In this document: piece by piece, positions 1 to 41,466 of the stretch | How the letters are laid out: every line of letters begins with the position of its first letter | How positions within the stretch are numbered: position 1 is the stretch's first letter | IMG/VR virus record: IMGVR_UViG_3300046779_002061 | Coordinates: 1-41,466 of that record | Reading direction: 5' to 3' (one strand) | Source: a virus | Taxonomy: Duplodnaviria > Caudoviricetes | Length of the DNA stretch: 41,466 nucleotides | Notes under the pieces: model-generated | Told to the model about the DNA's origin: nothing | Databases searched by the model: none | What the model saw: only the letters and a program-made list of their open reading frames with translations | Program-made: the position numbers and the translations under genes

Positions 1-36
1 GGTCATGGCGACGGCTGCAGAGATGGGGGCGAAGTG

Positions 37-372
37 ATGAATCTTCGATATGATTTGAATTGGCAATTACAACGTGCATTGCCAAAAAATCTGACGATTG
101 AGTATTTTTCGTTTGATTATCGTCCAGCATCACAGACATTATACGCAAAAGACAACCACTGGGTATATGGACGTGTATATCGCAACGGTGTCCATGGTGC
201 TATGCGCAATGTGGTCATCGACATGAAGAACCGCGCGGGCGAATGCTTTGAGTTTGATATCGGGATATGGAATTCTGAGCAATTGGTTTTGAATAGCTTT
301 CTGAAACTTCAACCCTATGACATTCAACAGCCCATTGCAGAAGTGATGCGTGAATTGGATTTGCTACCATGA
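37..372 (+). CDS. Hypothetical accessory protein, AT-richer, present in only one allele of this locus
   Basis: ATG at 37 overlaps upstream stop (TGATG); stop overlaps next ATG (ATGA); absent from the equivalent junction at 41203-41207. Confidence 0.8.
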   Translation: MNLRYDLNWQLQRALPKNLTIEYFSFDYRPASQTLYAKDNHWVYGRVYRNGVHGAMRNVVIDMKNRAGECFEFDIGIWNSEQLVLNSFLKLQPYDIQQPIAEVMRELDLLP

Positions 373-2888: not shown

Positions 2889-3159
2889 AATATCATTACA
2901 CGATATCAAGGGCCTCGAGTCATTTAGTGAGATATATCAATATGCAGATAAATTCGGTTACACGTGCAGGATTTCACACGATCGTCGGTCGCTTCGACTG
3001 ACAAGGAATGACCTTTGGCAATTTAGTGCAACCCTGACTCGTGCATTTGATGAAATGAATTTTGTGCGTAGGTATCTGATAGAAGGCGGATATAACGAAA
3101 ATCGTATCTATATACAGGCAATAAGTCGTCACGACATTGGTTGGTGGGATTGGATATGA
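2875..3159 (+). CDS. Hypothetical protein (AT-richer)
   Basis: 94 aa ORF filling the gap, coupled to next gene. Confidence 0.65.
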   Translation: MQLHEISLHDIKGLESFSEIYQYADKFGYTCRISHDRRSLRLTRNDLWQFSATLTRAFDEMNFVRRYLIEGGYNENRIYIQAISRHDIGWWDWI

Positions 3160-4184
3160 GAATCGTATGGCGTGATGAGTATCTCGACATCGTCACATCC
3201 AAGTGGCACAAAAAACCGCTCCCGCAAATTGCTGATGAAATCGGTATCGGCAAAACGACACTGTACCGCCACATCAAGCGCCTTGGGTTGACGCCACCAG
3301 CGATTGACACATCCGTAGCATCATCCGCATCGGCCAAGCGTCGCGCCTACCGTCGGCGACAATGGCGCATCGAGGAGGATGAGTACATCATCAAGTACTA
3401 CCATACCAAGTCGCCCAAGGCTATCGCACGCAAGCTCAAGCGCAGTGAGGCAAGTATATTCCACCGCGCGCATCGCATCGGTGCGACCTACGAGCCCGAG
3501 CGCCATCTCTTGCGACGGGATGAGGTGGCGCTTATGCTCGGCATACCCGTAGTGAATCTGGTCAAGCGCTACGCCGAAGATGCGGCATTCCCTATCCCAA
3601 TTGTCCGCAAGGGTCGATATATCCAGATAGACGAATTCGAGTTCCGTGAGTGGCTCAAGGCTGGCCATATTTTAGCCTTCGATCGCGCCAAGATTGCGCG
3701 TGAGCTATGGCGCATGTATGATGAGTGGGAAGCGAGGACTATCAGCAGTGCCGATGTGTATCGTGAGTGTCAGCCAATCGGGGAAGCGCTTCGGGGTGAT
3801 GGGCATCAGCTTCGGCTTGTCACTATCAAACCGATTAACCAGCACATCTACCTGAAGGATGAGATTTTCGAGTATGCATATCGATATGGCAATCGCATCG
3901 TGCCATGGTCATCGCCACGCTTTCTCGCCATCAAGGCGGCGTGGGATACGGAGTTCATTCTCAAGGCCGATGTGATTGCGCATGTTGGCGCTGGACTCTT
4001 TAGCAGGAAAGTGGCGCCACACCTCACTACGACAAACAAGTTCTACGCAAAGCGCATCGATGTATGTACAGCACTTCAGGCGCACGGCAAGCACGATCTC
4101 GCACGTGCGTTTCGAGAAGTGCCGATATCATGGCGGGAGATGATGGCAGATTATGAAAGGAAAAACCATGCCACTAAATCTTGA
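3156..4184 (+). CDS. Multi-HTH DNA-binding protein (paralog of 10357-11388)
   Basis: IADEIGIGKTTLYRHIKRLG and W..EEDEY...IARKLKRS HTH/Myb-like repeats. Confidence 0.7.
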   Translation: MRIVWRDEYLDIVTSKWHKKPLPQIADEIGIGKTTLYRHIKRLGLTPPAIDTSVASSASAKRRAYRRRQWRIEEDEYIIKYYHTKSPKAIARKLKRSEASIFHRAHRIGATYEPERHLLRRDEVALMLGIPVVNLVKRYAEDAAFPIPIVRKGRYIQIDEFEFREWLKAGHILAFDRAKIARELWRMYDEWEARTISSADVYRECQPIGEALRGDGHQLRLVTIKPINQHIYLKDEIFEYAYRYGNRIVPWSSPRFLAIKAAWDTEFILKADVIAHVGAGLFSRKVAPHLTTTNKFYAKRIDVCTALQAHGKHDLARAFREVPISWREMMADYERKNHATKS

Positions 4185-5465: not shown

Positions 5466-5718
5466 ACCACAGGCACCATTCGGCGATCGTACGTTCATCG
5501 CACGTGTGCCAGATACCCAATCCGACTACAAGGCCGATGTATACCGCACCGATTGGCAGGAAGTCGAGATAGAGTATCTCATCGATGGGCGCGTCATTGA
5601 CCGCGACGCTATCGCATTCCCCACAGCGGATGCGTGGGCGCGAGCGGGATATGCGACTCAAGAGCGGATTCATGCATGGTTTCGACGGCTCAAAAACTCA
5701 TCCGAAATTGGTCAATAA
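5437..5718 (+). CDS. Hypothetical protein
   Basis: GGAG SD before MPKRQ. Confidence 0.7.
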   Translation: MPKRQPQKARPQAPFGDRTFIARVPDTQSDYKADVYRTDWQEVEIEYLIDGRVIDRDAIAFPTADAWARAGYATQERIHAWFRRLKNSSEIGQ

Positions 5719-5724
5719 ATTCTC

Positions 5725-5753
5725 TTGACAAGTGTATTATAGTATATTATACT
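5725..5753 (+). promoter_or_regulatory. Strong sigma70-type promoter
   Basis: TTGACA (5725-5730)-17 bp-TATACT (5748-5753) in an AT-rich gap. Confidence 0.88.
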
Positions 5754-5805
5754 AGTGTCATGAGGTTCGACGAGTAACCTCCCGATGCTGAAGAGGAGCG
5801 CCGAT

Positions 5806-6159
5806 ATGAGCAAGCCAATGACAATCACCCCAGCCGCCATGATGACCATGATTGACGAGATTCACCAGAGCGTCACCGCTGTGAGCTGGAACACTGCTAG
5901 CGAAGTCGCTCAGACCGTCCGCGACAGCCTCCACGAGGACTGCACCAACGAGTACGGCGAGGCAGTGACCGATGCGATGATCATCGACGTGGTCAACTAC
6001 TGGATTGGCGTGAATCTCGGAATCATGGATGGCCAGCAAATGCGCGCTAATGCCAACGAGATGACCGCCGACCTCGCCGAGGAGCCAGAGGTCTACGGCG
6101 ACATCGCAGAGTACCGCTGGATTCGCGATATGTTCGCAGCCGTCGCCGATCGCGCGTAA
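5806..6159 (+). CDS. Acidic early hypothetical protein
   Basis: AGAGGAG SD; first gene after the promoter. Confidence 0.8.
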   Translation: MSKPMTITPAAMMTMIDEIHQSVTAVSWNTASEVAQTVRDSLHEDCTNEYGEAVTDAMIIDVVNYWIGVNLGIMDGQQMRANANEMTADLAEEPEVYGDIAEYRWIRDMFAAVADRA

Positions 6160-6228
6160 TCACGACGAAACGGGGTGAGCTCACCACTCACTCTGTCCGC
6201 TGGTGAGACCAGCGCTGATGAGTCGATT
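6158..6228 (+). ncRNA. Hammerhead ribozyme, type II (open stem II)
   Basis: Stem II CGAC(6163-66)/GTCG(6222-25); GAAA 6167-70; stem III 6171-79/6187-95; GUC cleavage triplet 6195-97; stem I CGCTGGT(6198-6204)/ACCAGCG(6208-14); CTGATGA core 6215-21; exactly fills an intergenic gap. Confidence 0.92.
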
Positions 6229-6245
6229 GTACTGAAGAGGAGTAC
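6229..6245 (+). promoter_or_regulatory. Leader hairpin GTACT-GAAGAGG-AGTAC containing the SD (also at 5787-5799 and 39992-40010)
   Basis: Three copies with identical loop and differing complementary stems, 4-6 nt before ATG. Confidence 0.75.
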
Positions 6246-6249
6246 CGCC

Positions 6250-6594
6250 ATGAAGACTAAAACCCCAGCCATCGGCCGATTCTACGCCCTGCAATACCTG
6301 ATTAGCTTGTCCTGTGAGCTCCGCTCACTCAACCCCGATAAGTGGGTTGGGAGTGTTCGCCAAGCGGGCTTCGACACCCTCGAGTTCCGCGTCTCCAAGA
6401 GCGATGGTGGTCGCTACTGGATTGGCGACGTGGTCATGGACGGCTTGACCATCGCTCGCTACATCAGCGGGGTTGATCTCCCAACGCCCGCAAAGGGCTT
6501 CGCAGATGCTCGTGCAGCCGTCGCCAAGCTTCTCGGCAACCGCGCGGTCAAAGTACGCCGCCCCGACATCGAGTGGGTCAAGGAGGTGCGGTAA
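6250..6594 (+). CDS. Early hypothetical protein downstream of the ribozyme
   Basis: AGAGGAG SD, MKTKTP start. Confidence 0.8.
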   Translation: MKTKTPAIGRFYALQYLISLSCELRSLNPDKWVGSVRQAGFDTLEFRVSKSDGGRYWIGDVVMDGLTIARYISGVDLPTPAKGFADARAAVAKLLGNRAVKVRRPDIEWVKEVR

Positions 6595-6803
6595 TGACGT
6601 ATCAAGTCCAGCAGGAGATCGCTTTGCGTGAGAAAGTGTTCGAGGTGATTACTCACATCCACGACTGCCACTTCGATGTCCGCACGGCCACGGCAGGAGA
6701 CACAATCGCCGCTATCAGAGACGAATGGAAGACCTGCCCGCTCACGATGGACCAGCTCGACTACTACCTCACCGAATGGGAAACGCAAAACCCGCTCCAC
6801 TAA
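6594..6803 (+). CDS. Early hypothetical protein
   Basis: AAGGAGGT SD; TAATG coupling. Confidence 0.75.
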   Translation: MTYQVQQEIALREKVFEVITHIHDCHFDVRTATAGDTIAAIRDEWKTCPLTMDQLDYYLTEWETQNPLH

Positions 6804-6816
6804 TCCAGACACACAG

Positions 6817-6847
6817 AACCCCCGGCCAATCGGTCGGGGGTTTCTCT
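6817..6847 (+). terminator. Intrinsic terminator, possibly bidirectional
   Basis: AACCCCCGGCC-AATC-GGTCGGGGGTT followed by TCTCT. Confidence 0.75.
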
Positions 6848-9410: not shown

Positions 9411-10412
9411 ATGAAAGTCTACCGCCATGGCAACCGCTGGCGCATCAAGGCGCACGATGATGCGGGGATTCGTCGCTGGATGAGCTTCGACACCGAGGAT
9501 GAGGCCATCGCATATGCCGAGCATGTTTCCCAAGGCATTCGGCGCATCGATGATGTATGGAGTCGCCTCGAGGGCAAGTCCATCATCATGCCACACCATG
9601 AGGTTGAGCTCCCTGCCGAACCGTACAGCCTTGCGTTCCTGAGTGACTTGCACTTTGGCAGCCCACACACCGACTACCGACAGGCGCGCCTTGATGCAGA
9701 GGTGATACGAGACACCCCAGGGATGTATGCGGTATTCCATGGCGACGGTATCGACAATTGGATTATCCCCAAAATGGCAGGGCTCCAGCGTGGTCAGGCA
9801 GTAGACTTTGATGATGAGTGGGCACTCCTACGACGATGGCTATCCATCCTCGGTGATAAGCTTATCATCGTGGTGGCAGGTAATCACGACAATTGGACAC
9901 ATACCCTCGGGGGTATCGACTTCCTGCAAAACCTCGTTGATCCAGCTATCTTCTACGACCCACAGCAAATTCTTTTCACCGTCTCATCAGGTGAGCATCA
10001 GCTCCGTGTGTGCGTGCGTCATAAGTGGCGTGGGCAATCCATCCTGAATCCCACGCACGGTATGGAACGAGCCGCACGGGACATTGACGCCGATGTGTAC
10101 GTTGGTGGTCACACACATATCGCTACACTCGCACGGCAGTTCACCGTACGAGAGCGTGATAGACTCGCACTACTCACGGGGACGTATAAGCGGTATGATA
10201 CGTATGCACGGCAATTAGGATTGCCACCGAGTCAGCACTCAGGAGCGGGTGCGCTCGTCATCGACCCACGCAAGGGTCATACATTTATCAGGGATATTCG
10301 AGAAGCGGCCGACTACCTGACATGGAAGCGGCGCACAGAAAGGGGTGATGACGATCATGCCCAAGCTGGACATCGACAAGGACGCATTAGAACGGGCACT
10401 CGACGGCAATAA
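9411..10412 (+). CDS. Calcineurin-like metallophosphoesterase with short N-terminal DNA-binding-like domain
   Basis: SDLHFG, GDGIDN, GNHD, RH, GHTH motifs. Confidence 0.85.
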   Translation: MKVYRHGNRWRIKAHDDAGIRRWMSFDTEDEAIAYAEHVSQGIRRIDDVWSRLEGKSIIMPHHEVELPAEPYSLAFLSDLHFGSPHTDYRQARLDAEVIRDTPGMYAVFHGDGIDNWIIPKMAGLQRGQAVDFDDEWALLRRWLSILGDKLIIVVAGNHDNWTHTLGGIDFLQNLVDPAIFYDPQQILFTVSSGEHQLRVCVRHKWRGQSILNPTHGMERAARDIDADVYVGGHTHIATLARQFTVRERDRLALLTGTYKRYDTYARQLGLPPSQHSGAGALVIDPRKGHTFIRDIREAADYLTWKRRTERGDDDHAQAGHRQGRIRTGTRRQ

Positions 10413-11388
10413 CACTAAAATTGCCGCACGCATCCTCGGTATAAGTGAATCAAGCGTGCGTAAATACCGTGATGCATATAGCCTCACCGTGTGGCGGACA
10501 TGGAAACGTCACGAGGTAGACTACCTCAAAAAGTACGCCTACACTATCAGCTTTGCCCGCATCGCCAAAAAACTCCGCAAAACCCCCACTGCCGTGCGTA
10601 TGATGGCCAAGCGCCTTGGCATTGTCATTGATGTGCGTGACATGCACACTACGATTGATGAGCTCGCCGAAGAACTCGGGTGCTCTCTCCGTATGATTCA
10701 ATCCATGATGCAACGCGATGATGACCCACTTCCCAGTCTGCCGATGCGCTATGGTCTGAAGGATGCATGGCGGGCGTTTGACATGGATGCCGTGCTGGCG
10801 TGGCTTGAGCGTGGCCACATCCTACGATTCGACCGCGCGCCCATGAATCACCGCATGGGCAAGCTTTACGATGCCGTGCGCCCACGCTGGATAGCGCAAG
10901 GCGAGATGCAAGCGATTGACCCGTGGATTGGCGCTCAAAGCTTTCACGGCCAACGACGACGGGGCCCTCTCCCCAAGCCGCTATATGTCGGCCTTCGGCG
11001 TGACCTCGCCCATGAATCGTATTACTACCTCCCCGATGTGTATCGACACTACTACACCTACGGCGAAACCATCCCCAAAGGCATCAAGTGCGATTGGCTA
11101 CAGGACATCCGTGAGGCGTGGGAGAGTGTGTATATCCAGAGTATCGAGATAGAGCAGTACATCACACGAGGGATGACGTATCACTACCGACGGTTGCACC
11201 GATTCCCACGGCCGCACACTCGCTATGCGTATTTACGGAGTGAGGTGGTGGATTGGTGTATGGCGAATGGATTCCCTGATGTAGCGCACCGTATCAAGCG
11301 GGAGGCTGTCACGTATCAGGAGCTCATGGGCGATCGGGCACGACGACAGCATACAGGGATGCGTCCACGGGATGTATATTCAAACTGA
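10357..11388 (+). CDS. Multi-HTH DNA-binding protein (paralog of 3156-4184)
   Basis: AARILGISESSVRKY; IAKKLRKTPTAVRMMAKRLG; ELAEELGCS HTH motifs. Confidence 0.7.
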   Translation: MPKLDIDKDALERALDGNNTKIAARILGISESSVRKYRDAYSLTVWRTWKRHEVDYLKKYAYTISFARIAKKLRKTPTAVRMMAKRLGIVIDVRDMHTTIDELAEELGCSLRMIQSMMQRDDDPLPSLPMRYGLKDAWRAFDMDAVLAWLERGHILRFDRAPMNHRMGKLYDAVRPRWIAQGEMQAIDPWIGAQSFHGQRRRGPLPKPLYVGLRRDLAHESYYYLPDVYRHYYTYGETIPKGIKCDWLQDIREAWESVYIQSIEIEQYITRGMTYHYRRLHRFPRPHTRYAYLRSEVVDWCMANGFPDVAHRIKREAVTYQELMGDRARRQHTGMRPRDVYSN

Positions 11389-35496: not shown

Positions 35497-36405
35497 TTAG
35501 TAACCCCGATTTTGTCGAGGGGGCTTAGCAACGGTGGTTGGTCGCTCCCAATCGGTGATCCATTTTTTGTTTGCTTCAAGATACTCGGCAACTTTCCGTC
35601 GGTGCTCGAGTATTTCGGGACTGAGTCGTTCTTCTCCATCGGTCTGCTCCTCTTCTGCAGGTTTGGTGATACGCTTGTACTGGTCAATCATGCCCGCAAT
35701 ATTTCGTGGATTCCAGCCACTGGCTATCCAGTCGCGAATGGCTTTCTGCCAAGTGGCGATATCATCACTACGGACTTCGGTGATAATTCGGTCTCGAGTG
35801 GCGTAGGGTGGAGTGAGGCGGGCGATATCACGATACGCCATAATCCGTGAATCGTCAAGGCGATCGTCTCGAGTCTCAGATAATTTCACTTTTGGCGAAT
35901 CATCAGGTACTTCGAGCGCAACCGCTGTTGCACTCTTCTTTGTTTCTTTCTTCTTTGTTTCTCTTTTGTTTATATCTTTCTTTTGTGTGTTCAAATTTGG
36001 CACTACCCCCTGTTCAAAATTTGAACTACCTACTGGTTCAATTTTGGCACTAGGTGGTTCAATTTCTGAACTACCTAGTTCAGATTTTGCACTACCCAAA
36101 TCTGAACTACCCTGTTCAATTTCTGCACTACCATGCGTGATGCGATAAGTGTAGACTGACACGCCATTCACAGTCTGCTCACGGCGAATGACGGCGTCGC
36201 ACTCTACCAGCTCACGCAGTGCGCGGATCACCGAGTTCTTCGATAGGCCAGTCATCTGAATAAACTGACTAATCGAGATGGTGTCCTCGGTGCGATGCCA
36301 CCCAATGGTTTGGCGCACAATGACTGCATGGACCTTGTATGCAGCTGGCGACACCTTGGCCATGAGCTCATCCACTATGACATTTGGAACGGCGTGCCAT
36401 GACAT
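35497..36405 (-). CDS. Replication initiator (lambda O-like)
   Basis: VPN.IVD...IVRQTIGW...D.ISISQF..MTGLS..SVIRAL.EL winged HTH; internal iterons. Confidence 0.88.
   Translation of the reverse strand: MSWHAVPNVIVDELMAKVSPAAYKVHAVIVRQTIGWHRTEDTISISQFIQMTGLSKNSVIRALRELVECDAVIRREQTVNGVSVYTYRITHGSAEIEQGSSDLGSAKSELGSSEIEPPSAKIEPVGSSNFEQGVVPNLNTQKKDINKRETKKKETKKSATAVALEVPDDSPKVKLSETRDDRLDDSRIMAYRDIARLTPPYATRDRIITEVRSDDIATWQKAIRDWIASGWNPRNIAGMIDQYKRITKPAEEEQTDGEERLSPEILEHRRKVAEYLEANKKWITDWERPTTVAKPPRQNRGY
35935..36132. repeat. Replication origin: ~7 iterons (consensus GTTCAATTTYTG[A/C]ACTACC) next to a T-rich tract
   Basis: Copies start near 35989, 36012, 36036, 36057, 36078, ~36097 (partial), 36114; strand-asymmetric AT tract 35935-35988. 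Confidence 0.82.
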
Positions 36406-39901: not shown

Positions 39902-39963
39902 CATTTTCGTGGCGTCACGAAAATGATACCCCTATCCTGCCAACGTTGACAGGATAGGGGTAT
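39902..39963. repeat. Two abutting palindromes: CATTTTCGTG-GCGT-CACGAAAATG (39902-39925) and a 38-bp near-perfect palindrome (39926-39963)
   Basis: Direct reading; the second has one mismatched pair (C39940/A39949) and covers the -35 box. Confidence 0.92.
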
Positions 39964-39974
39964 TATAGTATACT
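39946..39974 (+). promoter_or_regulatory. Strong sigma70-type promoter
   Basis: TTGACA-17 bp-TATACT; shares GTATTATAGTATA with the 5725 promoter. Confidence 0.88.
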
Positions 39975-40014
39975 AACCGTAGGCTCGATTATGTACTGAA
40001 GAGGAGTACACACC

Positions 40015-40555: not shown

Positions 40556-41205
40556 GCTATCAAAAACAGGGTGGCGACCGCTACGCAAACTACATCGGCG
40601 TGAATCAGCGCATCCAGTCGGCCAAGAAGGACATCGTCAGCGTCATCACGACCGACCCAATCCTGTTCGCAGGAAGTGATGTGTTCGGCTACGTGCGTGC
40701 CACGATTACTCTCAACGATGGCCGCATGGCAACGGCAATTGCCTCGTTCCGCCTGAATGCCACGGCAGGCGCCCAAAAGACGCACCCATTCGAGGATGCC
40801 GAATCGTCAGCTATTGGCCGTGCACTCGCGTTCTTGGGCTACCATGTCGACAAAGCCATCGCCAGTGCAGAGGAAGTGCAAGAGGCACACGCACGCGAAG
40901 AAGAGGATGCACAGCTCGAGCAGGAGCGGGCTACCGCCCAATCGCACAAAGAAAAGCTTGAGCTTGGTCGGTCGGCCGTACGTGAGATGATCGCAGAGTG
41001 CCAAGCCTACGGCATTAAGCCTGATAGCTATCCAAAGTTCCGCAAAATCGTGGACATGAGCGTCGATGAGCTCCGCGCCTTCTACCGCTGGATGGATGGA
41101 GAAATCAAGAGCGCACAGCAGGCCGTACAATCCGCGCCTGATGAGGACTTGGACCAGCTCCATGAGGAGGTCATGGCGACGGCTGCAGAGATGGGAGTGA
41201 AGTGA
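40552..41205 (+). CDS. Single-strand annealing recombinase (Rad52/Sak-like)
   Basis: Y..VNQRI, VRATI, EDAESSAIGRALAFLG, IAS.EEV. Confidence 0.72.
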   Translation: MSYQKQGGDRYANYIGVNQRIQSAKKDIVSVITTDPILFAGSDVFGYVRATITLNDGRMATAIASFRLNATAGAQKTHPFEDAESSAIGRALAFLGYHVDKAIASAEEVQEAHAREEEDAQLEQERATAQSHKEKLELGRSAVREMIAECQAYGIKPDSYPKFRKIVDMSVDELRAFYRWMDGEIKSAQQAVQSAPDEDLDQLHEEVMATAAEMGVK

Positions 41206-41393
41206 TGCGTGCATCTGTCCTCATCATTATCGTTATGGTTGTAGTAGCGTGGATGCTTGCCATCCCGCTACTCATCCTCCTCGCACTCGATGCGATTATG
41301 CCGGGCGCAATCGCCGTCAATCAGTGGTCATATCTCGGCATGCTGTTCATCCTGCTCATTGTGGGCGGGATGATGCGCCAAGGTGGGAAGTGA
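41205..41393 (+). CDS. Small membrane protein, second allele of 369-557
   Basis: Four amino-acid differences from the 369-557 product. Confidence 0.85.
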   Translation: MRASVLIIIVMVVVAWMLAIPLLILLALDAIMPGAIAVNQWSYLGMLFILLIVGGMMRQGGK

Positions 41394-41466
41394 TGCTCGA
41401 CCTATCTACACTCAACATCCAACGCTGGCCTGATGAGATTCCGCTTTGGGCAATTGATCGTGGCCC

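What the first reader, a model, noticed from the sequence alone, without database searches (positions are those of the whole stretch)
6158..6228. Type II hammerhead ribozyme splitting an early phage operon
Seen: every hammerhead core element is present in type II permutation: stem II CGAC/GUCG (extendable by AAU/AUU), GAAA, 9-bp stem III with two G-U pairs, GUC cleavage triplet (cut after C6197), 7-bp stem I and CUGAUGA. It fills the gap between gene 1 and gene 2 of a self-contained unit (consensus promoter 5725, three unknown genes, terminator 6817). The stem III loop CUCACCA (6180-86) is fully complementary to UGGUGAG (6201-07) at the tip of stem I, and its CUCACC also matches GGUGAG at 6174-79, so a loop-loop pseudoknot or on/off refolding is possible. 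Known: hammerheads occur in phage intergenic regions, mostly with unknown function. Inference: self-cleavage gives the downstream mRNA a 5'-OH end protected by a hairpin and uncouples its stability from gene 1.
Basis: partly seen in the sequence, partly recalled or inferred. Interest (0 to 1): 0.85.

Follow-up and report, generated by a model that had tools for sequence, protein, structure and literature searches.

The report
Pseudoknot-free hammerhead between phage genes
An uncultured phage carries an intact hammerhead RNA motif in the gap between two small genes, a layout known since 2011; it is predicted to cut the shared message in two, and it belongs to a common short-armed form that the standard RNA library misses and that likely braces itself with one U-A contact instead of the usual pseudoknot.

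Summary
Confirmed: a complete type II hammerhead at 6163-6225 (cut predicted after C6197); no equally good match in 300 simulated windows. A close relative keeps the whole core and changes stem I by two compensatory pairs. The proposed loop III/stem I pseudoknot fails: relative L096 keeps loop III but replaces its partner. Ribozymes between phage genes are known (Perreault 2011) and this scan has 430 earlier notes on them in other genomes. What I add: 483 distinct type II hammerheads from pattern scans fall into two architectures. Of 327 short-armed ones, like this one, 297 have U at position 1.7, a 4-bp stem II and an A just before it, rarely a pseudoknot; 1 of 156 long-armed ones does. That is the geometry of the published U1.7:A Hoogsteen contact. 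Rfam missed this copy and all 30 short-armed copies tested. Likely role: cutting the early transcript into a gene 1 message and a hairpin-capped gene 2-3 message; genes beside such ribozymes are exchanged between relatives. No cleavage was observed; host and gene functions unknown.

The parts
5725..5753 (+). sigma-70-type promoter TTGACA-17-TATACT
   Evidence: 11 of 12 match; both hexamers kept in L001 and L002 while the spacer changes
5806..6159 (+). gene 1, 117 aa, unknown function; stop codon 3 nt before stem II; exchangeable
   Evidence: ORF with SD 5793-98; no PHROG, no Pfam at cut-off, no Atlas hit; replaced by 371 other letters in contig X1-1
6162..6162 (+). unpaired A just 5' of stem II, equivalent of A L2.4; predicted Hoogsteen partner of U6204
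   Evidence: A in 309 of 327 short-armed type II hammerheads; 13 of 56 in chance matches
6163..6170 (+). stem II 5' strand (CGAC) and core G12-A15.1 (GAAA)
   Evidence: unchanged in L001, L002, L096, X1, X2
6171..6195 (+). stem III hairpin, 9 bp; would end the gene 1 message
   Evidence: P 0.99; G6172A turns G-U into A-U in X1 and X2; G6179A opens the loop-closing pair in L001
6195..6198 (+). GUC triplet; predicted cut between C6197 and C6198
   Evidence: position in the consensus core; cleavage not observed
6198..6214 (+). stem I hairpin (6 bp plus a weak U-A) with U1.7 = U6204; would cap the gene 2-3 message
   Evidence: two compensatory pairs 6199:6213 and 6201:6211 and loop change in L001 with U6204 kept; U1.7 in 310 of 327 short-armed copies
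6215..6225 (+). core CUGAUGA and stem II 3' strand (GUCG)
   Evidence: invariant in close relatives
6229..6249 (+). ribosome-binding site GAGGAG (6237-42) in a 5-bp hairpin; the motif CTGAAGAGGAG recurs at 5788 and 39996
6250..6594 (+). gene 2, 114 aa, unknown function
   Evidence: 10 homologs, 59-95% identity, all unnamed or hypothetical; no PHROG/Pfam; Atlas hits below 0.9
6594..6803 (+). gene 3, 69 aa, start overlaps the stop of gene 2 (TAATG); unknown function
6816..6843 (+). terminator-like hairpin, weak U tract
   Evidence: -23.4 kcal/mol; stem unchanged in L001 and L002; not called

Best explanation
The gap between gene 1 and gene 2 holds a complete type II hammerhead motif that is predicted to cut the phage's early transcript after C6197, likely splitting it into a gene 1 message ending in the stem III hairpin and a gene 2-3 message starting with a 5'-OH on the stem I hairpin, whose lifetimes would then be set separately. 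Shown: core, three stems, covariation, position between a stop codon and a ribosome-binding site, same position in unrelated phages. Inferred: (1) transcription from 5725 to the hairpin at 6816-43 gives about 1.1 kb; (2) the ribozyme folds as it is made, stems I and II being held parallel by a trans-Hoogsteen pair U6204:A6162 rather than by a pseudoknot; (3) the cut leaves about 440 nt with a 2',3'-cyclic phosphate and about 650 nt with a 52-nt leader; (4) a 5'-OH on a blunt hairpin is a poor substrate for 5'-monophosphate-dependent decay (RNase E, RNase J; recalled knowledge), so genes 2-3 are likely stabilised and insulated from whatever gene lies upstream; (5) this insulation makes stop-ribozyme-SD units portable, which fits the exchange of neighbouring genes between relatives.
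For: Chance excluded. In L001 7 substitutions fall in the 66-nt element, none in the core: 4 form two compensatory pairs, 2 are in loop I, 1 closes loop III. In a 77-sequence alignment 98.6% of cells pair, 12 of 16 pairs change on both sides, covariation 0.79 against at most 0.13 for slid controls (members were chosen for having stems, so this describes the class rather than tests it). Context: 67 of 87 structured matches have an ORF of 40 aa or more ending within 15 nt upstream and an SD plus start downstream, against 1 of 56 unstructured chance matches (rows not de-duplicated). Leader length after the cut is narrow: median 49.5 nt, 10-90% 42-59, 152 of 181. U1.7 and the flanking A go together: among 351 copies with a 4-bp stem II 298 have both, 32 neither, 21 one; after removing redundancy 51 of 61 short-armed against 0 of 42 long-armed. 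Precedent: tandem prophage hammerheads cut 2-kb polycistronic RNAs in vitro and in E. coli (PMC3088659); three type II copies cut in vivo in Desulfovibrio vulgaris (PMC8782182); an unpaired U1.7 pairing with the last A of loop II gave 61-95 per min (O'Rourke 2015 as reported in PMC11875169). Gene exchange: gene family c0 follows a ribozyme behind 6 different upstream genes, with c1>c0 beside c1>c2>c0 and c7>c0 beside c7>c11>c0; gene 1 is replaced in contig X1-1 with the junction at 6161.
Against: No cleavage or RNA end was observed; only contigs, no raw reads, were available, and the one contig from an RNA library runs through the cut site (uncut RNA or DNA). In a ribosome-free fold of longer stretches stem II has probability 0.02 or less because the end of gene 1 pairs with 6163-67. 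U1.7 can also form a weak pair with A6208 (P about 0.8), and a paired U7 lowered rates in the O'Rourke controls; PMC11875169 found U7 not essential in its own trans constructs. The U:A contact is inferred from conservation of two invariant bases, without covariation. Cutting hardly changes predicted access to the ribosome-binding site (window 0.54-0.65 uncut, 0.64 cut; class mean +0.03, 48 up and 24 down of 145). The host, and so its RNases, is unknown. The review PMC6765202 calls the purpose of such ribozymes undefined.
Confidence: 0.6

Rival explanations
1. Translation-gated cutting: a ribosome terminating at the gene 1 stop codon, 3 nt before stem II, would cover A6162, stem II and GAAA, so the rate of cutting would follow how heavily gene 1 is translated, coupling release of the gene 2-3 message to upstream translation.
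For: In 114 of 137 short-armed copies with an upstream ORF the stop lies within 10 nt of stem II, mode 0-4 nt, inside a ribosome footprint (recalled). In the window the end of gene 1 can also sequester stem II when untranslated.
Against: Tight spacing is equally explained by compact phage genomes and is also seen in the other class (19 of 25). The competing upstream helix is not conserved: 6 of 174 against 6.6 expected. Cutting is irreversible and a fast ribozyme needs only a short gap between ribosomes.
Confidence: 0.15
2. The main selective value is at the DNA level or in modularity: ribozyme-plus-SD repeats serve as recombination joints for gain, loss and swapping of small early genes, like PeSL cassettes of T4-type phages, and cutting is secondary.
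For: Insertion-like gene orders in relatives; near-identical repeats in L011, L014, L060, L129, L131, L134; gene 1 swap ending at 6161; stem I exchanged as a block in L096; PeSL precedent (PMC2839356 abstract).
Against: This genome has a single copy (model R1 finds only 6159-6228; 1 copy in each of G001, G004, G005), so it cannot recombine within itself; a recombination joint needs no catalytic core, stems or U1.7, which are all kept. Any conserved sequence beside variable genes marks swap ends.
Confidence: 0.1
3. The cut serves mainly to shorten the life of the gene 1 message (loss of the terminator-protected end), making gene 1 a brief pulse, with no gain in stability for genes 2-3.
For: Cutting does not open the ribosome-binding site; ribozymes in 3' UTRs can lower expression (PMC6765202 passage).
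Against: The 5' product keeps a 9-bp hairpin 2 nt from its new end; arrays of up to 5 ribozymes in one locus (L022) put one before and after each gene, which fits segmentation better than silencing.
Confidence: 0.1
4. One reading: loop III pairs with the tip of stem I as a pseudoknot or an alternative off-fold that controls cutting.
For: 7-nt complementarity in the window and in L002/L010; duplex -9.6 kcal/mol, equal to stem I itself.
Against: Lost in L001, L096 and contig X2-2 (one shared event) though loop III is kept; 63 of 65 relatives have 4 bp or fewer; it would have to open 4 pairs of stem I.
Confidence: 0.03
5. An inactive relic or chance match.
For: No Rfam hit; no RNA end seen.
Against: Perfect core, compensatory changes, 0 of 300 by chance; Rfam also misses all 30 short-armed copies tested.
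Confidence: 0.04

Closest known systems
Clustered hammerhead ribozymes flanking single genes or short gene blocks in prophages (Perreault et al. 2011, PMC3088659; parts 1-4 of 8, supporting legends and text of Fig. S5 read)
   Same: Type II permutation, consensus core, place between variable small genes of a phage operon, proposed processing of a polycistronic transcript into gene-length mRNAs.
   Different: One copy in this genome; no loop I / 3'-tail pseudoknot, which that paper gives as the type II consensus. Its Fig. S5 did score a U-Nm-Y-N / R-Nm-A contact in type II copies with and without pseudoknot; the proportions are a picture I could not read, and Dataset S1 was cut before the type II alignment.
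Rfam RF02276 Hammerhead_II
   Same: Same core and permutation; short-armed relatives score 26-34 bits.
   Different: The model has a 2-bp stem II, a longer arm I and a conserved 3' tail. The window has no hit at E<=10; 0 of 30 short-armed copies in 14 loci reach 37 bits, 2 of 6 pseudoknot-type loci do.
Minimal hammerhead with the AL4:U1.7 trans-Hoogsteen pair (O'Rourke, Estell, Scott 2015; paper not held, known here from passages of PMC11875169 and PMC9217987), and the same pair in sTRSV (type III) and Schistosoma (type I) ribozymes
   Same: U seven bases after the cut, 4-bp stem II, A at the position of the last loop II base.
   Different: Here stem II is open: the A comes from the 5' flank of a natural type II ribozyme, not from a GNRA tetraloop; the contact is inferred, not measured.
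PeSL cassettes of T4-type phages (Arbiol et al. 2010, PMC2839356, abstract read)
   Same: Small repeated regulatory units between non-essential early genes that go with gene shuffling.
   Different: PeSL is promoter plus terminator; here the unit is stop, ribozyme, SD. Mini-circles not tested; single copy in this genome.
RNase III processing of the phage T7 early transcript; RiboJ-type ribozyme insulators (both recalled, not looked up)
   Same: A cut between cistrons that gives defined, structured ends.
   Different: Protein-free, leaves 5'-OH and cyclic phosphate; natural.

Membership tests
Hammerhead ribozyme class | Core C3UGANGA9, G12AAA15.1, U16.1-H17 | tested here: met
   6215-21, 6167-70, 6196-97
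Hammerhead ribozyme class | Three stems around the core, with covariation | tested here: met
Hammerhead ribozyme class | Self-cleavage after H17 giving 2',3'-cyclic phosphate and 5'-OH | not testable with these tools
   only contigs available
Type II permutation | Stems I and III closed by loops, stem II open | tested here: met
Rfam RF02276 / Perreault type II consensus | Score at or above 37 bits | tested here: not met
   no hit at gathering or E<=10
Rfam RF02276 / Perreault type II consensus | Pseudoknot of 4 or more pairs between loop I and the 3' tail | tested here: not met
   longest helix 2 bp in the window; 35 of 327 short-armed against 108 of 156 long-armed
Hammerheads with the U1.7:A Hoogsteen contact | U at 1.7, 4-bp stem II, A next to pair 10.4-11.4 on the 5' strand | tested here: met
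   U6204, A6162; 297 of 327 short-armed copies
Hammerheads with the U1.7:A Hoogsteen contact | U-Nm-Y-N / R-Nm-A motif in full (4 of 4 bases) | tested here: not met
   window 3 of 4 (penultimate loop base G); in 181 class members the penultimate base is a pyrimidine in 94 and the base after stem II a purine in 126
Hammerheads with the U1.7:A Hoogsteen contact | Contact forms and raises the rate | not testable with these tools
   needs mutant kinetics or a structure
Clustered prophage hammerheads (Perreault 2011) | Lies between ORFs of a phage operon | tested here: met
   tailed phage genes; stop 6157-59, SD 6237-42
Clustered prophage hammerheads (Perreault 2011) | Several copies flanking genes | tested here: not met
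   one copy here; 2-5 per locus in related and unrelated contigs
PeSL-like shuffling cassette | Repeated unit within a genome with recombination shown at the unit | tested here: inconclusive
   single copy here; swap junction at 6161 in one contig; variable gene order in relatives

The most novel reading that the evidence does not exclude
The commonest type II hammerhead of phages is an undescribed pseudoknot-free architecture (6-bp stem I, U1.7, 5-6-nt loop, open 4-bp stem II, flanking A) that nature built on the single U1.7:A Hoogsteen pair known so far from engineered minimal ribozymes; it is invisible to Rfam, is used as a standard stop-ribozyme-SD insulator that makes early genes portable, and because the A and stem II lie under the terminating ribosome its cutting can be tuned by upstream translation.
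Probability: 0.3. Interest if true: 0.6.

Novelty: new member of a known kind. Interest (0 to 1): 0.35.

Why it matters
The locus itself is one more example of a known arrangement. Its use is practical: a single ribozyme in a compact three-gene unit, with natural variants that swap stem I or gene 1, is about the simplest system in which to test the open question of what phage ribozymes do to mRNA stability and protein output. The survey around it shows that a large class of type II hammerheads escapes Rfam annotation, so phage ribozymes are undercounted, and it gives a two-base test (U6204, A6162) of whether natural ribozymes rely on the minimal tertiary contact. Such 63-nt units with a fixed 50-nt leader would also be ready-made insulators for synthetic operons.

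Tried and rejected
Rfam at gathering and at E<=10: no hammerhead hit. Second loose descriptor hit at 5704/5744/5788: weak stems, starts upstream of the promoter, not found by model R1; rejected. CUGAAGA at 5788, 6232 and 39996 as further ribozyme cores: no GAAA partner or stems; they are ribosome-binding-site motifs. Loop III/stem I pseudoknot, loop I/3'-tail pseudoknot, loop I/5'-flank pairing and stem II extension: none above controls. Cleavage as a switch that opens the ribosome-binding site: effect negligible. Conserved upstream helix competing for stem II: 6 of 174 against 6.6. No similar DNA in 50,697 GenBank phages. RNA evidence: 8 runs listed, 6 laid (X1, X2, X3, X5; X1, X2, X4, X6), all contigs, so no ends, strand or level; X4 and X6 gave nothing on 6090-6330; small-share runs say nothing of habitat. 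Gene function: PHROGs, Pfam, ESM Atlas and homolog search gave no name for genes 1-3. Host: terminase homologs carried no organism; the 58 genome hits span many phyla and were not linked to this phage. 69 of 130 loci had no stems and were used as a chance control (56 distinct matches). O'Rourke 2015 and one hammerhead review were not held.

Full report
Observation. The window is a whole 41,466-base contig of a tailed phage: terminase, tape measure, tail, holin, endolysin, replication initiator and thymidylate synthase genes, with repeated ends. The element is as described: CGAC 6163-66, GAAA 6167-70, a 9-bp stem III, GUC 6195-97, stem I 6198-6214, CUGAUGA 6215-21, GUCG 6222-25. It starts 3 nt after the stop of gene 1 (5806-6159) and ends 11 nt before the SD of gene 2 (6250-6594); gene 3 (6594-6803) is coupled by TAATG. 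A promoter at 5725-53 matches 11 of 12. My descriptor found no match with such stems in 300 simulated windows and 2 loose ones. The isolated element folds into the hammerhead as its minimum-energy structure; in longer ribosome-free stretches stem II loses to a helix with the end of gene 1. Rfam reports nothing.

Close relatives. Two viral contigs carry the unit. L002 is identical over the ribozyme. L001 has 7 changes in 66 nt, none in the core: two compensatory pairs in stem I, two loop I changes, one at the end of stem III. L096 has the window's stem III and loop with L001's stem I; contig X2-2 has the same stem I, so these count as one event. Contig X1-1, from an RNA library, keeps promoter, ribozyme (one G-U to A-U change) and genes 2-3 but has another gene in place of gene 1, the junction lying at 6161. 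It runs through the cut site, which says nothing since contigs show neither ends nor strand and may be DNA.

The wider class. Keeping matches with stem I of 5 bp or more and stems II and III of 3 or more left 60 of 130, 134 of 146, 119 of 134 and 127 of 153 loci, 483 distinct ribozymes. Arm I length is bimodal. Of 327 with 19 nt or fewer, 310 have U at 1.7, 309 an A directly 5' of stem II, 313 a fourth pair in stem II, 297 all three, and 35 a possible pseudoknot of 4 bp; of 156 with 20 nt or more, 8 have U1.7, 1 has all three and 108 a pseudoknot. After merging similar stems I the counts are 51 of 61 and 0 of 42. Neither base was in the patterns; chance matches have them in 8 and 13 of 56. All six pairs below U1.7 vary freely. 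The window is a typical short-armed member. Limits: the patterns demand 3 bp of stem II and a GUC triplet, so pseudoknotted copies with 2-bp stems are under-sampled and no share of all type II hammerheads can be given; copies within a phage family are not independent. With U1.7 built into the pattern, 49 of 58 loci from bacterial genomes of many phyla held such a ribozyme. Rfam RF02276 describes the long-armed form: 0 of 30 short-armed copies in 14 loci reached its 37 bits (best 33.6), 2 of 6 pseudoknot-type loci did.

Reading of the two bases. U seven bases after the cut and the last A of loop II form a trans-Hoogsteen pair in the Schistosoma and sTRSV structures, and this pair alone was reported to raise minimal ribozymes to 61-95 per min (O'Rourke 2015, known from passages of PMC11875169 and PMC9217987). 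In the short-armed type II form stem II has no loop, but the A sits where that loop base would. I infer the same contact. Against: it rests on conservation, not covariation; U1.7 faces a base it could pair with weakly in most copies (65 of 77, mostly U-G); and PMC11875169 found U7 dispensable in its constructs.

Function. Structured matches sit between a stop codon and an SD plus start in 67 of 87 rows against 1 of 56 chance matches, with a leader of about 50 nt after the cut. Arrays put one before each gene (up to 5 in L022). The simplest mechanism is processing: the early transcript is cut into a gene 1 message ending in hairpin III and a gene 2-3 message starting with a 5'-OH on hairpin I. 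Protection from 5'-end-dependent decay is inferred from recalled knowledge of RNase E and J; the host is unknown. Cutting barely alters predicted ribosome access, so it is not a translation switch of the unmasking kind. The stop codon is within 10 nt of stem II in 114 of 137 copies, so a terminating ribosome would transiently block folding; whether that matters is open. In related phages genes beside these ribozymes are gained, lost and reordered, which fits units made portable by an insulator, and recombination between repeats where there are several; this genome has one copy, as do 3 of 5 related records.

Comparison with what is known. Perreault et al. 2011 (PMC3088659) described type II hammerheads, their pseudoknot, their place between variable prophage genes and the processing idea, and showed cutting of polycistronic RNAs. 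They noted many copies without the pseudoknot and scored a U/A motif in type II in Fig. S5, whose proportions I could not read; Dataset S1 was cut before the type II alignment, so short-armed copies may well be in their set. De la Pena 2017 says type II contacts are usually Watson-Crick pairs (PMC6155905 passages). Weinberg 2019 leaves the purpose open (PMC6765202 passages). Type II copies cut in vivo in D. vulgaris (PMC8782182 passages). Eight searches of the open library and passages of PMC13481778, PMC10085705 and PMC12192606 showed no description of a pseudoknot-free type II class; most subscription papers are not in that library, so this is weak. The scan itself holds 430 notes on type II hammerheads in phage early operons and several on gene shuffling at them, none on this DNA and none matching the Hoogsteen terms.

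Verdict. The short-armed U1.7:A architecture is well supported as a pattern and may be unreported (about 0.45 on its own; 0.3 for the full novel case). Interest 0.35.

Noticed in passing
window 5788-5798, 6232-6242, 39996-40006: The exact motif CTGAAGAGGAG, an SD in a small hairpin, precedes three genes behind the two consensus promoters and the ribozyme (4 matches at 1 mismatch, 0.47 expected). 39985-40017 matches the gene 2 leader of relative L013 over 33 nt at 94%: a shared early-gene leader module, perhaps a binding site for a translational regulator.
   Followed up: partly
window 39923-39974: A second TTGACA-17-TATACT promoter (39946-74, read) whose -35 half lies in a 22-bp-arm inverted repeat with no spacer; possible operator.
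   Followed up: no
window 1-39 and 369-630 against 41169-41466: Ends repeat at 94-95% identity with about 330 bases present only in the left copy: circular genome assembled from mixed strains, or a variable gene at the junction.
   Followed up: no
window 35985-36132: Iteron-like 21-36-nt repeats followed by an A-rich tract inside the O-like replication initiator gene: likely origin.
   Followed up: no
L030, L059, L066, L070, L099, L125: A variant with a 13-nt arm I (5-bp stem), 5-bp stem II, no flanking A, and the SD directly after stem II.
   Followed up: no
L026, L084: Type II copies with a 22-nt arm I and a conserved loop (CACTTAG) but no 3'-tail pseudoknot; the 5' flank may supply the contact.
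   Followed up: no
L286-L288 and L295-L297: Assemblies of Phycicoccus jejuensis and Streptomyces iakyrus each hold three ribozymes with the same spacing: a shared phage or cross-contamination; sequences not compared.
   Followed up: no
L014 and L060, ends of genes before ribozymes: Unrelated genes end in the same 15-20 nt before the ribozyme (for example ...ETIG stop), a footprint of insertion by duplication.
   Followed up: partly
window 3141-4184 and 10345-11388: Two 347-aa proteins both matching D5-like regulator and excisionase profiles; possible paralogs.
   Followed up: no
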